DNA of 47,465 bases from a virus (Duplodnaviria > Heunggongvirae > Uroviricota > Caudoviricetes), in IMG/VR virus record IMGVR_UViG_3300034196_000151. One strand, written 5' to 3'. Under the pieces are notes generated by a model. It saw only the letters and a program-made list of their open reading frames with translations, had not been told where the DNA came from and did no database searches. The first letter of the stretch is position 1, and each line of letters opens with the position of its first letter. Shown here piece by piece: positions 2,684 through 36,686 of this stretch. The position numbers and the translations under genes were made by a program.

Positions 2684-2910
2684 ATAAAAAAAGGCACCCT
2701 CATGGATGCCTTTCTTCTGATAGAAGTTACTCTGCGTCTTGATGACGATTACGACGCTTGTCACGCCATTGGCGGTCTTTTTTGTTGTGCTGAGCTTTCT
2801 CGCTGTCATGTTTCTTTGCACCGCTGAAACGTTCAACTGCGTCACCGAAAGAACCTTGCATGTTGTAACTCCTAACCTTGGGTTTGTGTTGTTTCGTTTT
2901 GATGTGTCTA
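2684..2910 (-). repeat. ~225-bp repeat unit 1 (promoter, leader, 44-aa ORF, terminator)
   Basis: Near-identical to 3583-3811 and 4170-4390 by direct comparison. Confidence 0.9.
2727..2861 (-). CDS. Basic microprotein copy 1 (44 aa, MQGSFGDAVERFSGAKKHDSEKAQHNKKDRQWRDKRRNRHQDAE)
   Basis: SD AGGAG; promoter TTTACT-17-TAGAAT; terminator; frame conserved across four copies. Confidence 0.85.
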   Translation of the reverse strand: MQGSFGDAVERFSGAKKHDSEKAQHNKKDRQWRDKRRNRHQDAE

Positions 2911-3582: not shown

Positions 3583-3811
3583 ATAAAAAAAGGCACCCTA
3601 ACGGATGCCTTTCTTGTAGAAGATGTTATTCTGCGTCTTGATGACGATTACGACGCTTGTCACGCCATTGACGGTCTTTTTTATTGTGCTGAGCTTTCTC
3701 GCTGTCACGTTTCTTGTTGCCCGAAAAACGTTCTTGTGCGTCACCGAAAGAACCTTGCATGTTGTATCTCCTAGCCTTTGGGGTTTGTGTTGTTTCGTTT
3801 TGATGTGTCTA
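3583..3811 (-). repeat. ~225-bp repeat unit 2
   Basis: Near-identical to 2684-2910. Confidence 0.9.
3626..3760 (-). CDS. Basic microprotein copy 2 (44 aa, MQGSFGDAQERFSGNKKRDSEKAQHNKKDRQWRDKRRNRHQDAE)
   Basis: SD AGGAG; own promoter and terminator; same length and frame as copy 1. Confidence 0.85.
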   Translation of the reverse strand: MQGSFGDAQERFSGNKKRDSEKAQHNKKDRQWRDKRRNRHQDAE

Positions 3812-4169: not shown

Positions 4170-4390
4170 ATAAAAAAAGGCACCCTAACGGATGCCTTTC
4201 TTCTGGTAGAAGTTTATTCTGCGTCTTGATGACGGTTGCGACGCTTATCACGCCATTGACGGTCTTTTTTATTGTGCTGAGCTTTCTCGCTGTCGTGTTT
4301 CTTAGCACCACTGAAACGTTCAACTGTGTCACCGAAAGAACCTTGCATTTTGTAACTCCTAACCTTGGGTTTGTGTTGTTTCGTTTTGAT
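4170..4390 (-). repeat. ~220-bp repeat unit 3
   Basis: Near-identical to units 1 and 2. Confidence 0.9.
4214..4348 (-). CDS. Basic microprotein copy 3 (44 aa, MQGSFGDTVERFSGAKKHDSEKAQHNKKDRQWRDKRRNRHQDAE)
   Basis: SD AGGAG; promoter TTGTTT-17-TATACT; terminator. Confidence 0.85.
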   Translation of the reverse strand: MQGSFGDTVERFSGAKKHDSEKAQHNKKDRQWRDKRRNRHQDAE

Positions 4391-33854: not shown

Positions 33855-33939
33855 TGGTGCCCGGTGCCAGACTCGAACTGGCATGACTTTCGCCGGAAGA
33901 TTTTAAGTCTTCTGTGTCTACCGATTTCACCAACCGGGC
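33855..33939 (-). tRNA. tRNA-Leu (UAA)
   Basis: GCCCGGT/ACCGGGC acceptor; anticodon loop CT-TAA-AA; long variable arm; GTTCGA; encoded CCA. Confidence 0.95.
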
Positions 33940-33945
33940 ATAATT

Positions 33946-34022
33946 TGGTCCGTGCGGCAGGACTTGAACCTGCGACCATCCGCTTAGAAGGCGGATGCTC
34001 TATCCAACTGAGCTACGCACGG
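33946..34022 (-). tRNA. tRNA-Arg (UCU)
   Basis: CCGTGCG/CGCACGG acceptor; AGCTCAGTTGGATAGAGC D arm; loop CT-TCT-AA; GGTTCAA; CCA. Confidence 0.95.
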
Positions 34023-36331: not shown

Positions 36332-36354
36332 AAAAAACCACCCGAAGGTGGTTT
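36332..36354 (-). terminator. Terminator of the tRNA-Leu/tmRNA-like operon
   Basis: AAACCACC-TTCG-GGTGGTTT followed by a T-run. Confidence 0.85.
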
Positions 36355-36361
36355 CTGTGTT

Positions 36362-36528
36362 TGGTAGCTGTTGATGGGGTCGAACCACCAAGTTAGGACT
36401 ATTTCATAAGCCTCAGAGTACGTGCGGCCTCGTCTGACTTACTATTTCATCTTCACTCTGCCTCCACATCCACGGTTTTTGATGTTTGCACGTATAACAC
36501 CGCCAACCGATCCAGTTTAGCAACAGCC
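36362..36528 (-). ncRNA. 167-nt tRNA-mimic RNA, candidate miniature tmRNA-like RNA
   Basis: Acceptor GGCUGUU/AACAGCU-A-CCA; T arm GGUGG-UUCGACC-CCAUC; 13-nt stemless D-loop with CUGGAU; P2-like GGUUGG/CUAACU; UAUACGU-GCA-AAC resume-like motif; 15-codon frame ending UAG UAA. Confidence 0.7.
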
Positions 36529-36542
36529 AGAAATCTTAAATT

Positions 36543-36627
36543 TGGTGCCCAAGGTCGGACTCGAACCGACACTCCTTTCGGAAGCGGATTTTGAATCCGC
36601 CGCGTCTACCAATTTCACCACATGGGC
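36543..36627 (-). tRNA. tRNA-Leu (CAA)
   Basis: GCCCATG/CTTGGGC acceptor; loop TT-CAA-AA; long variable arm; GGTTCGA; CCA. Confidence 0.95.
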
Positions 36628-36657: not shown

Positions 36658-36686
36658 AGTATATCAAGGTTTAGACAAAACTGCAA
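36658..36686 (-). promoter_or_regulatory. Sigma70 promoter of the tRNA-Leu(CAA)/tmRNA-like operon
   Basis: TTGCAG-17-TATACT. Confidence 0.75.

What the first reader, a model, noticed from the sequence alone, without database searches (positions are those of the whole stretch)
36362..36528. Candidate miniature tmRNA-like RNA (167 nt) co-transcribed with tRNA-Leu(CAA)
Seen: a 7-bp acceptor stem (G1.U72 then six Watson-Crick pairs), A73-CCA, a canonical T arm, a 13-nt stemless D-loop (GCUAAACUGGAUC; compare AUUCUGGAUUCGA in E. coli tmRNA) and a P2-like helix GGUUGG/CUAACU. In place of an anticodon arm there are ~105 nt. These contain UAUACGU-GCA-AAC, one mismatch from the tmRNA resume consensus WAUARNYGCNAAN, which opens the frame ANIKNRGCGGRVKMK ending in UAG UAA (36489-36439). 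Also seen: UACGUGC/GCACGUA plus CAGAG/CUCUG (a pseudoknot) and an ACAUC/GAUGU hairpin. The RNA lies 14 nt downstream of tRNA-Leu, between a sigma70 promoter and a UUCG terminator. Known: E. coli tmRNA is 363 nt with pseudoknots before and after the tag. Inference: a half-size tmRNA derivative or a new class of tRNA-mRNA hybrid. Caveat: the predicted 7-bp helix would mask the resume codon and there is no room for PK1.
Basis: partly seen in the sequence, partly recalled or inferred. Interest (0 to 1): 0.92.

Follow-up and report, generated by a model that had tools for sequence, protein, structure and literature searches.

The report
tRNA-shaped kissing-loop phage small RNA
This is a real, conserved 167-nt non-coding RNA gene of a group of jumbo phages: it has the ends of a tRNA but a large folded body, it resembles phage T4's still unexplained "species 1" RNA far more than a tmRNA, and its function is unknown.

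Summary

I found 14 distinct homologues in metagenome contigs of related jumbo phages. All lie 13-14 nt after a tRNA-Leu. None was found in GenBank phages, Rfam or reference genomes.

Covariation supports a tRNA-like four-way junction. The arms in the D and anticodon positions are greatly enlarged, and their apical loops pair with each other (UACGUGC/GCACGUA, with a compensatory C-G to U-A change).

The tmRNA reading fails on most tests:
- There is no G3.U70.
- The proposed P2 helix and the ACAUC/GAUGU hairpin break in homologues.
- ARAGORN and Rfam RF00023 give no match.
- The "tag" frame has no codon-position bias. In four homologues a 1-nt insertion removes its stop, so the frame ends ...VKMK* in some and ...TRLHIL* in others.
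- Most of the frame lies inside covarying helices.

The closest analogue is T4 RNA C (species 1 RNA). It also has tRNA-like ends and two internal hairpins, and across T4-like genera their loops are invariant and complementary (UUGACG/CGUCAA).

The most likely role is a stable tRNA mimic matured by the tRNA pathway. That role is inferred, not shown.

The parts
36658..36686 (-). Probable promoter of the tRNA-Leu / small-RNA unit: TTGCAG, 17 nt, TG-n-TATACT (extended -10)
   Evidence: Read. The -10 element is conserved in L173. The consensus scan did not call it because the -35 matches only 3 of 6.
36543..36627 (-). tRNA-Leu(CAA), first gene of the unit
   Evidence: ARAGORN and Rfam RF00005 at 52.7 bits.
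36529..36542 (-). 14-nt spacer (AAAUUUAAGAUUUCU type), with U at -1 before the predicted RNase P site
   Evidence: Conserved in all homologues. The same spacer start precedes the terminator in the allele that lacks the RNA, L221.
36362..36528 (-). The 167-nt tRNA-like small RNA (whole gene)
   Evidence: There are 14 distinct homologues at 158-207 bits to model R1.
36522..36528 (-). Acceptor stem, 5' strand (RNA positions 1-7); pairs with 157-163
   Evidence: Invariant in 14 sequences and 100% paired.
36362..36372 (-). Acceptor stem 3' strand (157-163), discriminator A164 (tRNA position 73) and encoded CCA (165-167)
   Evidence: Invariant.
36373..36389 (-). T arm (140-156): stem GGUGG/CCAUC, loop UUCGACC
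   Evidence: Only loop positions equivalent to tRNA 59/60 and one G-C to G.U stem change vary. This is the conservation pattern of real T loops.
36510..36518 (-). Single-stranded D-loop-like stretch (11-19), part of the invariant ACUGGAUCGG; its GG is a candidate partner of the T loop
   Evidence: Invariant in 14 sequences. The tertiary contact is inferred.
36519..36521 (-). Junction helix J1, 5' strand (8-10); pairs with 67-69 (window 36460-36462)
   Evidence: 100% paired. Pair 9:68 is CG/UG/UA and pair 10:67 is UG/CG/UA. RNAalifold predicts it independently.
36473..36509 (-). Arm in the D position: helix Pa (20-24/52-56), internal loop, helix Pb (28-33/43-48) and a 9-nt apical loop
   Evidence: Compensatory changes at 23:53 (UA/CG/GU) and 33:43 (CG/UA).
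36488..36494 (-).
   Evidence: It pairs with 104-110. C37-G108 (alignment columns 37:109) becomes U-A in four homologues.
36419..36425 (-). GCACGUA (104-110), 3' partner of the kissing helix, in the apical loop of the second long arm
   Evidence: The duplex is worth -9.0 kcal/mol.
36455..36458 (-). Junction helix J2, 5' strand (71-74); pairs with 136-139 (window 36390-36393), directly before the T arm
   Evidence: 100% paired. Alignment pair 74:137 is UA, UG or CG, and the G71A change in L220 turns a G.U into A-U.
36406..36442 (-). Long hairpin of the arm in the anticodon position: 87-93/117-123 plus 94-96/112-114
   Evidence: Best-supported helix. Alignment pairs: 89:123 UA/CG, 92:120 GC/AU, 88:124 GU/GC/AU, 93:119 UG/UA.
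36439..36489 (-).
36332..36354 (-). Intrinsic terminator (stem AAACCACC/GGUGGUUU, UUCG loop, then a U run)
   Evidence: It is conserved, with a compensatory A-U to G-C change in L171. The scan listed only its + strand mirror.

Best explanation
It is the gene of a structured, non-coding, tRNA-shaped small RNA carried by a clade of jumbo phages related to Pseudomonas phage PA5oct in their tRNA genes.

It is transcribed by the host RNA polymerase together with a tRNA-Leu, and transcription ends at an intrinsic terminator.

The ends are a complete tRNA minihelix: a 7-bp acceptor stem, a T arm and an encoded ACCA. The RNA is therefore most likely released like a tRNA, with RNase P cutting before G1 and the 3' end trimmed back to CCA. 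This step is inferred.

Between the ends, two short junction helices (8-10/67-69 and 71-74/136-139) give a four-way junction with tRNA topology. The arms in the D and anticodon positions are 56 and 61 nt long. Their apical loops pair with each other over 6-7 bp, which locks the molecule. This fold is shown by covariation.

No anticodon-like loop and no coding frame is conserved. The most likely mode of action is therefore as a stable tRNA mimic that binds, titrates or recruits a factor recognising the acceptor / T-arm / elbow end of tRNAs. Candidates are a tRNA-directed host defence nuclease, or a repair, CCA-adding or charging enzyme. The folded body would supply specificity. This function is inferred; I put it at about 0.35-0.4 on its own. 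The confidence given below refers to the identity of the element: a tRNA-like non-coding RNA of the T4 RNA C kind, not a tmRNA.
For: - Sequence features were read directly.
- 14 distinct homologues were found, always 13-14 nt after a tRNA-Leu(CAA or UAG) and before a conserved terminator.
- The RNA is far better conserved than its flanks.
- The acceptor stem, ACCA and ACUGGAUCGG are invariant; the T arm varies only at loop positions 59/60 and by one G-C to G.U stem change. All other variation lies inside positions 9-137.
- The cloverleaf-with-kissing-loops model has 47 pairs, 96.4% of cells paired and 7 pairs with changes on both sides. Its covariation score is 0.158, against 0.116 +/- 0.007 in shuffles (0 of 500 reach it) and 0.03-0.06 for slid controls.
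- RNAalifold finds both junction helices independently.
- The kissing helix has a compensatory CG to UA change.
- There is no Rfam, ARAGORN, GenBank-phage or reference-genome match.
- T4 RNA C shows the same design. It has an acceptor-like stem, a T arm and two hairpins. Their loops UUGACG and CGUCAA are invariant and complementary in five T4-like genera, while the stems covary or are replaced.
- The relatives carry dozens of tRNA genes, and one carries an RNA 2'-phosphotransferase (Tpt1-like) gene. This fits phages that invest in tRNA supply and repair.
Against: - There are no expression or end-mapping data.
- The single-sequence fold is not unusually stable (z = +0.38).
- The 14 sequences are closely related (about 80-99% identical), so each compensatory change is one or two evolutionary events. 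No R-scape-type statistic could be run.
- An alternative pairing, CAGAG/CUCUG, competes with junction helix J2 and has one compensatory change of its own.
- The partner and function are guesses. No conserved neighbouring protein gene points to a partner.
- At least one relative keeps the tRNA-Leu, spacer and terminator but lacks the RNA, so it is dispensable in some genomes.
- A frame starting at GCA stays open in all 14 sequences, so translation is not strictly excluded.
Confidence: 0.8

Rival explanations
1. Miniature tmRNA. The RNA is charged, enters stalled ribosomes and adds the peptide encoded from GCA (position 40) up to the first stop.
For: - It has tRNA-like ends with a stemless GG loop that resembles the tmRNA D loop.
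- UAUACGU-GCA-AAC resembles the resume context. The GCN first codon and the A at -4 are kept in all 14 sequences, and the frame is open in all 14.
- Huge phages are known to carry tmRNAs (PMC7162821, PMC12484599).
Against: - C3-G70 replaces G3.U70 and is invariant.
- The proposed P2 and ACAUC/GAUGU helices fail in homologues, and there is no PK1.
- The resume codon is inside the covarying kissing helix. About 10 of the 15 codons lie partly or wholly in supported helices.
- Codon-position variation is 6:6:6. An indel removes the stop in four homologues, giving C-termini VKMK versus TRLHIL. The U at -5 is not conserved.
- The G/A at the stop's third base is explained by pairing.
- ARAGORN and RF00023 are negative, even on the 181-nt region alone.
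- G001 has no SmpB.
- Known phage tmRNAs are about 300 nt and are found by ARAGORN (PMC12484599).
Confidence: 0.03
2. A working elongator tRNA with huge insertions, or one carrying an intron. The hairpin at 116-134 would be an anticodon arm with loop AUGAAAU (GAA, Phe) and A73.
For: - When positions about 9-30 to 95-120 are deleted in silico, ARAGORN calls tRNA-Phe(GAA), but only at a relaxed threshold.
- U33, A37 and A73 are present in 10 of 14 sequences.
- G001 has no tRNA-Phe.
Against: - In four homologues the loop is ACUCAAU, with C at position 33.
- The lower stem of this hairpin is broken in 5 sequences. Its 5' strand instead covaries with 87-93.
- ARAGORN at its default threshold called tRNA in only 1 of the 598 in-silico deletion variants (a tRNA-His(ATG), not Phe), and RF00005 does not match the native RNA.
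- There is no D stem.
- 105 nt is too small for a group I intron, and no ribozyme family matches.
- G001 lacks tRNAs for many other amino acids too, so the missing Phe says little.
Confidence: 0.03
3. A regulatory RNA that works by base pairing or as a protein sponge through its purine-rich single strands (UGGAUGUGGAGG, which is Shine-Dalgarno-like, and its GGA motifs). The tRNA-like ends would serve only for processing and stability.
For: - Positions 60-66 (AUGUGGA) are invariant and GGAGG at 64-68 is kept in most sequences.
- The tRNA-like ends would give defined, protected termini.
- tRNA operons are known sources of small RNAs (general knowledge).
Against: - The GGAGG partly lies in junction helix J1 (67-69).
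- One GGA is lost in several homologues, where GUGGAU becomes GUGUAU.
- The SD + AUG two-codon mini-ORF idea fails: the AUG is AUA in L224, and the ORF is 12 codons long in four homologues.
- No target could be searched for because the host is unknown.
Confidence: 0.1
4. A decaying tRNA pseudogene, or merely a cis-acting 3' trailer of tRNA-Leu with no role of its own.
For: The RNA is absent from some relatives that keep the tRNA-Leu, spacer and terminator. It is always physically tied to a tRNA-Leu.
Against: - It is 88-92% identical where the flanks are 65-77% identical.
- It has invariant ends and compensatory changes in six helices.
- It has its own acceptor stem and encoded CCA.
- It is kept behind two different tRNA-Leu genes (CAA and UAG) and in rearranged gene neighbourhoods.
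Confidence: 0.04

Closest known systems
Bacteriophage T4 RNA C (species 1 RNA, rnaC) and its homologues in T4-like phages
   Same: - Both are small stable-RNA genes (139 versus 167 nt) lying in or at the end of a phage tRNA gene cluster and co-oriented with the tRNAs.
- In both, the ends form an acceptor-like 7-bp stem next to a canonical T arm.
- In both, the body is two long hairpins in the D and anticodon positions.
- In both, the two apical loops are complementary. In T4 they are UUGACG/CGUCAA, invariant in five genera while the stems change. Here they are UACGUGC/GCACGUA, with covariation.
- Neither is in Rfam.
- The function of T4 RNA C is unknown (PMC3014915).
   Different: - There is no detectable sequence or covariance-model similarity.
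- T4 RNA C has two U.U mismatches in its acceptor stem and no encoded CCA. This RNA has a fully paired stem that starts with G.U and an encoded ACCA.
- The arms differ in length and sequence.
- The hosts and phage families differ: Straboviridae versus unclassified jumbo phages.
- The kissing-loop reading of T4 RNA C is my inference, not a published result that I could cite.
tmRNA (SsrA; Rfam RF00023)
   Same: It has an acceptor stem, a T arm and CCA with a stemless GG-containing D loop. It has a pseudoknotted body. A GCA codon is preceded by an A at -4.
   Different: - No G3.U70, no helix 2, no PK1-PK4 layout and no conserved tag or stop.
- It is half the size.
- No model match.
- The pseudoknot is a loop-loop contact between two arms of a four-way junction, not a series of H-type knots around a message.
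Canonical tRNA, including class II tRNA-Leu (RF00005)
   Same: It has four-way junction topology, a 7-bp acceptor stem, a discriminator A, CCA and a T loop with the tRNA conservation pattern. It is co-transcribed with tRNAs.
   Different: The D and anticodon arms are replaced by 56- and 61-nt domains locked together. There is no conserved anticodon loop. It scores below every threshold of RF00005 and ARAGORN.
Other tRNA-like modules in non-coding RNAs (bacterial Y-RNA-like YrlA, plant-virus 3' tRNA-like structures, mascRNA)
   Same: They use tRNA mimicry to engage tRNA-processing or tRNA-binding factors (general knowledge, not tested here).
   Different: In YrlA the tRNA-like part is internal and the ends form the Ro-binding stem. 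Viral tRNA-like structures are 3' ends of genomes. None matched in Rfam.

Membership tests
tmRNA | tRNA-like domain: acceptor stem, T arm, 3' CCA and a D loop without a stem | tested here: met
   Read. Invariant in 14 homologues.
tmRNA | G3.U70 wobble pair (alanine identity) | tested here: not met
   Pair 3:70 is C-G in all 14 sequences. The only wobble pair is G1.U72.
tmRNA | Long helix 2 joining the strand after the D loop to the strand before the T arm | tested here: not met
   The proposed GGUUGG/CUAACU is 77% paired with no compensatory change. The strand before the T arm instead pairs with 71-74.
tmRNA | Pseudoknot PK1 upstream of a single-stranded resume codon | tested here: not met
   Only 39 nt precede the GCA. 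G40 and C41 of that codon are paired in the covarying kissing helix.
tmRNA | Conserved tag reading frame with a conserved stop and C-terminal degron | tested here: not met
   The frame is open in all 14, but it is 15 codons (...VKMK/VKIK/VKME) in 10 and 25 codons (...TRLHIL) in 4. Variable sites fall 6:6:6 by codon position.
tmRNA | Recognition by the family models (Rfam RF00023, ARAGORN tmRNA search) | tested here: not met
   No hit at the gathering score or at E <= 10, even on the 181-nt region alone. ARAGORN -m is negative even at 80% threshold.
tmRNA | Works with SmpB | not testable with these tools
   The 96%-complete relative G001 encodes no SmpB. The host is unknown and binding cannot be tested here.
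tRNA (RF00005) | 7-bp acceptor stem, discriminator, CCA, and a T arm with T-loop consensus | tested here: met
tRNA (RF00005) | D arm (3-4 bp stem, 7-11 nt loop) and a 5-bp anticodon stem with a 7-nt loop carrying U33 and a purine at 37 | tested here: not met
   The 3-bp helix 8-10/67-69 encloses 56 nt. The anticodon-like hairpin 116-134 is not supported, and its loop has C33 in 4 homologues.
tRNA (RF00005) | Score above the model thresholds | tested here: not met
   There is no RF00005 or ARAGORN call on the native sequence. tRNA-Phe is called only after in-silico deletion and at a relaxed threshold.
T4 RNA C-type phage stable RNA | Gene within or at the end of a phage tRNA transcription unit, on the same strand | tested here: met
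T4 RNA C-type phage stable RNA | Ends form an acceptor-like stem stacked on a canonical T arm | tested here: met
T4 RNA C-type phage stable RNA | Two internal hairpins whose apical loops are complementary (my own criterion, derived) | tested here: met
   This RNA. The T4 family: UUGACG/CGUCAA is invariant in T4, IME523, KM16, KaAlpha and NM4.3.
T4 RNA C-type phage stable RNA | Detectable homology (sequence or covariance model) | tested here: not met
   Model R1 does not hit T4 rnaC. BLAST of the RNA finds nothing in 50,697 phage records. The likeness is architectural, so I do not file the RNA as a homologue.

The most novel reading that the evidence does not exclude
The RNA is charged at its encoded CCA end and acts on the ribosome. 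It would be either a minimal tagging or rescue RNA that works without the canonical tmRNA layout, or a non-decoding A-site mimic. In that case T4 RNA C-type RNAs would be a long-overlooked class of phage-encoded translation modulators.
Probability: 0.05. Interest if true: 0.9.

Novelty: new variant of a known kind. Interest (0 to 1): 0.55.

Why it matters
Phage tRNA clusters have been known since the 1970s to encode extra stable RNAs, T4 species 1 and 2, whose roles are still unknown.

This element is a second, unrelated-in-sequence example of that kind. It comes from uncultured jumbo phages, and there is enough natural variation to define its fold: a tRNA-topology junction whose two enlarged arms are locked by a loop-loop helix.

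The same design seems to hold for T4 RNA C. This suggests a recurrent phage solution, a closed tRNA mimic that keeps only the acceptor / T-arm face. It also gives concrete, testable features for working out what such RNAs do: the kissing loops, the invariant acceptor stem starting with G.U, and the encoded CCA. One example would be tests against tRNA-directed bacterial defences.

The result also removes a false lead. This is not a new minimal tmRNA.

Tried and rejected
1. Exact 16-mer scans of IMG/VR with internal blocks returned almost only chance hits. L002-L004, L170, L180 and L200-L208 were inspected or scanned and rejected.
2. BLAST against GenBank phages found only the neighbouring tRNA-Leu or 24-30-nt chance matches.
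3. Pfam families for terminase and capsid found nothing in G001, so the phage could not be classified that way. The search for related loci with the neighbouring protein found only G001 in IMG/VR. The route that worked was search for homologous proteins followed by the look-up of encoding contigs.
4. Alternative genetic codes for the small-ORF genome gave no sign of recoding.
5. A hairpin at 116-134 read as an anticodon arm (Phe GAA) was rejected.
6. A Shine-Dalgarno + AUG-AAA-stop mini-ORF, like the lambda bar minigenes, was rejected: AUG is AUA in L224 and the ORF is extended in four homologues.
7. Weak C/D-box snoRNA matches (E 6-10) were taken as chance.
8. A triple-crossing pseudoknot model that uses CAGAG/CUCUG fits nearly as well as the cloverleaf model. 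I kept it only as an alternative because it is broken in L220 and is topologically harder.
9. CsrA-sponge idea: the GGA motifs are not all conserved.
10. No complex or structure prediction was run, because no protein partner is indicated.

Full report
**What is there**

There is a 7-bp acceptor stem (G1.U72 plus six Watson-Crick pairs), then A and CCA. There is a T arm, GGUGG-UUCGACC-CCAUC. About 130 nt lie between them. tRNA-Leu(CAA) lies 14 nt upstream (36627-36543). A CCACC-UUCG-GGUGG hairpin with a U run follows 7 nt downstream. A plausible extended -10 promoter (TG-n-TATACT) precedes the tRNA. The consensus scan did not call it, but the -10 element is conserved in a relative. ARAGORN and Rfam, at gathering scores and at E <= 10 even on the 181-nt region alone, find no tmRNA, tRNA or any other family. 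The single-sequence fold is no more stable than shuffled sequence (z = +0.38).

**Context**

No whole genome is held for the window. The window is a run of small, mostly unannotated ORFs plus an HNH endonuclease, a cell-wall hydrolase and a cpYpsA/SLOG protein. Its tRNA-Arg(UCU)/tRNA-Leu(UAA) pair is 94-95% identical to that of the Pseudomonas jumbo phage PA5oct group.

One relative in IMG/VR, G001, is 290 kb. IMG/VR labels it a provirus, and CheckV estimates it at 96% complete. It carries 37 tRNA genes, all on one strand. It has no SmpB and no tmRNA above the cut-off. [quoted passage not shown]

**Homologues**

DNA-pattern scans gave four distinct copies: the window, L001 (identical to L172 and G001), L171 and L173. 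None was found in GenBank phages or in one genome per prokaryotic species (a chance hit only).

Searching with the neighbouring 195-aa protein found 27 protein clusters. Fetching their contigs and scanning them with covariance model R1 raised the set to 17 full-length copies, 14 of them distinct (alignment A5).

In every case the RNA starts 13-14 nt after a tRNA-Leu, either CAA or UAG, and ends before the same terminator. The terminator itself shows a compensatory A-U to G-C change in L171. The RNA is 88-92% identical among the first four copies. The surrounding genes are 65-77% identical at the DNA level and have been rearranged. One relative, L221, has the tRNA-Leu(CAA), the start of the spacer and a terminator but no RNA. 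Others lack the whole module in that interval. The element is therefore accessory.

**Structure**

All variation lies between positions 9 and 137, apart from T-loop positions 59/60 and one G-C to G.U change in the T stem. The acceptor stem, ACCA and ACUGGAUCGG are invariant.

P2 (GGUUGG/CUAACU) is 77% paired and ACAUC/GAUGU is 84% paired. Neither has a compensatory change.

The model that fits best has these elements, numbered by RNA position in the window copy:
- Acceptor stem, 1-7/157-163.
- Junction helix 8-10/67-69.
- A long arm with Pa (20-24/52-56) and Pb (28-33/43-48).
- Junction helix 71-74/136-139.
- A second long arm, 87-93/117-123 plus 94-96/112-114.
- T arm, 140-156.
- A loop-loop helix, 35-41/104-110, between the apical loops of the two long arms.

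The model has 47 pairs, and 96.4% of cells are paired. Seven pairs have changes on both sides. Among them are 33:43, 37:109, 89:123 and 92:120; 74:137 goes through a G.U intermediate (these five are alignment columns). The covariation score is 0.158, against 0.116 +/- 0.007 in shuffles (0 of 500 reach it) and 0.03-0.06 for slid controls. RNAalifold found both junction helices on its own.

It has one compensatory change (L173) and one break (L220), so I keep it as an alternative conformer.

The sequences are close relatives, so each covariation is one or two events. The fold is well supported but not proven.

**Why it is not a tmRNA**

- The alanine identity pair G3.U70 is absent; it is C-G in all 14 sequences.
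- There is no helix 2 and no PK1.
- The proposed resume codon sits in the kissing helix, and about 10 of the 15 codons lie partly or wholly in supported helices.
- The frame stays open in all 14 sequences, but the variable sites are spread 6:6:6 over the codon positions.
- Ten sequences end ...VK(M/I)(K/E) after 15 codons. In the four most divergent, a 1-nt insertion plus a U-to-C change removes the stop, and the frame runs 25 codons to ...TRLHIL.
- The G/A alternation at the third base of the stop codon is explained by its pairing partner.
- Frame 1 of the whole RNA has few stops anyway.
- The U at -5 of the resume context is not conserved.
- Known phage tmRNAs are about 300 nt and are found by ARAGORN (PMC7162821, PMC12484599).

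**Other readings tested**

The hairpin at 116-134 looks like a Phe(GAA) anticodon arm. ARAGORN calls tRNA-Phe when the insert is deleted in silico, but only at a relaxed threshold. In four homologues the loop becomes ACUCAAU, the lower stem breaks in five sequences, and its 5' strand covaries with 87-93 instead.

An SD-like GGAGG followed by AUG-AAA-stop is not conserved either. The weak C/D-box matches are at chance level.

**Closest known**

T4 RNA C (species 1 RNA) lies at the end of the T4 tRNA cluster. It has a T arm next to an acceptor-like stem and two internal hairpins. Its role is unknown (PMC3014915), and it has no Rfam family.

I aligned homologues from five T4-like genera. The apical loops of its two hairpins, UUGACG and CGUCAA, are invariant and perfectly complementary, while the stems covary or are replaced. 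The T4 RNA therefore seems to share the design found here. There is no sequence or model similarity between the two, so I treat this as the same kind of RNA, not as the same family.

**Mechanism**

- Shown: a conserved, separately bounded gene with tRNA-like ends, and a covarying, closed fold.
- Inferred: maturation by RNase P and 3' trimming to the encoded CCA, giving a stable RNA.
- Inferred with lower confidence (about 0.35-0.4): action as a tRNA mimic that binds a factor recognising the acceptor / T-arm / elbow face. Examples are a tRNA-directed defence nuclease or a repair, CCA-adding or charging enzyme. The complete invariance of the acceptor stem, while other helices covary, suggests sequence-specific recognition of that end.

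Ribosome-acting roles remain possible at a few per cent.

**Verdict**

This is a real and previously undescribed RNA family: a new variant of the phage tRNA-like stable-RNA kind. It is not a tmRNA. Interest is moderate to good, 0.55.

Noticed in passing
L174:1409-1547 (T4 rnaC) and L239-L242: In T4 RNA C homologues from five T4-like genera, the apical loops of the two internal hairpins (UUGACG and CGUCAA) are invariant and complementary. The stems covary or are replaced. In Klebsiella phage KaAlpha the complementarity extends to about 13 nt. This suggests a kissing-loop fold for this 50-year-old orphan RNA.
   Followed up: partly
L177 (G001:C1:114546-114651, minus strand): A 106-nt tRNA-like gene follows a tRNA-Met. 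It has an acceptor stem, D arm, T arm and CCA, but an oversized anticodon region. ARAGORN does not call it. It gives a weak RF00023 hit at 14.6 bits.
   Followed up: partly
L185-L199 (G001, whole 290-kb record): There are 37 tRNA genes, all on one strand. Leu(UAA), Met(CAU) and Arg(UCU) occur in many copies. Two CUA-anticodon (amber-suppressor-type) tRNAs are present, and ARAGORN gives two tRNA-like genes 2-nt or 4-nt 'anticodons'. ORF statistics show no sign of stop-codon recoding.
   Followed up: partly
window 33855-34022: The tRNA-Arg(UCU)/tRNA-Leu(UAA) pair is 94-95% identical to that of the Pseudomonas jumbo phage PA5oct group, and the tRNA-Arg alone is 95-97% identical to that of Acinetobacter phages. 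This points to a shared or exchanged tRNA cassette. PA5oct's tRNA repertoire resembles G001's (PMC7318152).
   Followed up: no
window 2734-2783, 3633-3682, 4221-4270: Three copies of a sequence of about 50 nt are 82-90% identical to the stretch just upstream of tRNA-Arg in relatives (L172:657-706, L173:5895-5943). This may be a repeated promoter or regulatory element.
   Followed up: no
L221:2197-2330: This is an allele without the small RNA. tRNA-Leu(CAA) is followed by the same spacer start (AAAUUUAAGAU) and then directly by a terminator hairpin. The RNA has therefore been precisely gained or lost between the spacer and the terminator.
   Followed up: yes
L172, L173, L210, L216 (source contigs): The phage-like regions lie in contigs of 1.54 Mb, 0.68 Mb, 1.07 Mb and 0.32 Mb. 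IMG/VR treats the 290-kb G001 as a provirus cut out of the 1.54-Mb contig. This could be a jumbo prophage, a chimeric assembly or a much larger element. The flanks could not be fetched.
   Followed up: no
L238 (CAKLQF020000003.1): A record filed as 'Acinetobacter phage MD-2021a' carries queA and rcsC next to a tRNA-Leu that is 87% identical to the window's. It looks like bacterial chromosome. Together with the window's 40% G+C, this is a weak hint of an Acinetobacter-like host.
   Followed up: no
L221:1413-1958: A relative encodes an RNA 2'-phosphotransferase (Tpt1/KptA, PF01885) near the tRNA region. This suggests the clade has RNA or tRNA repair functions.
   Followed up: no
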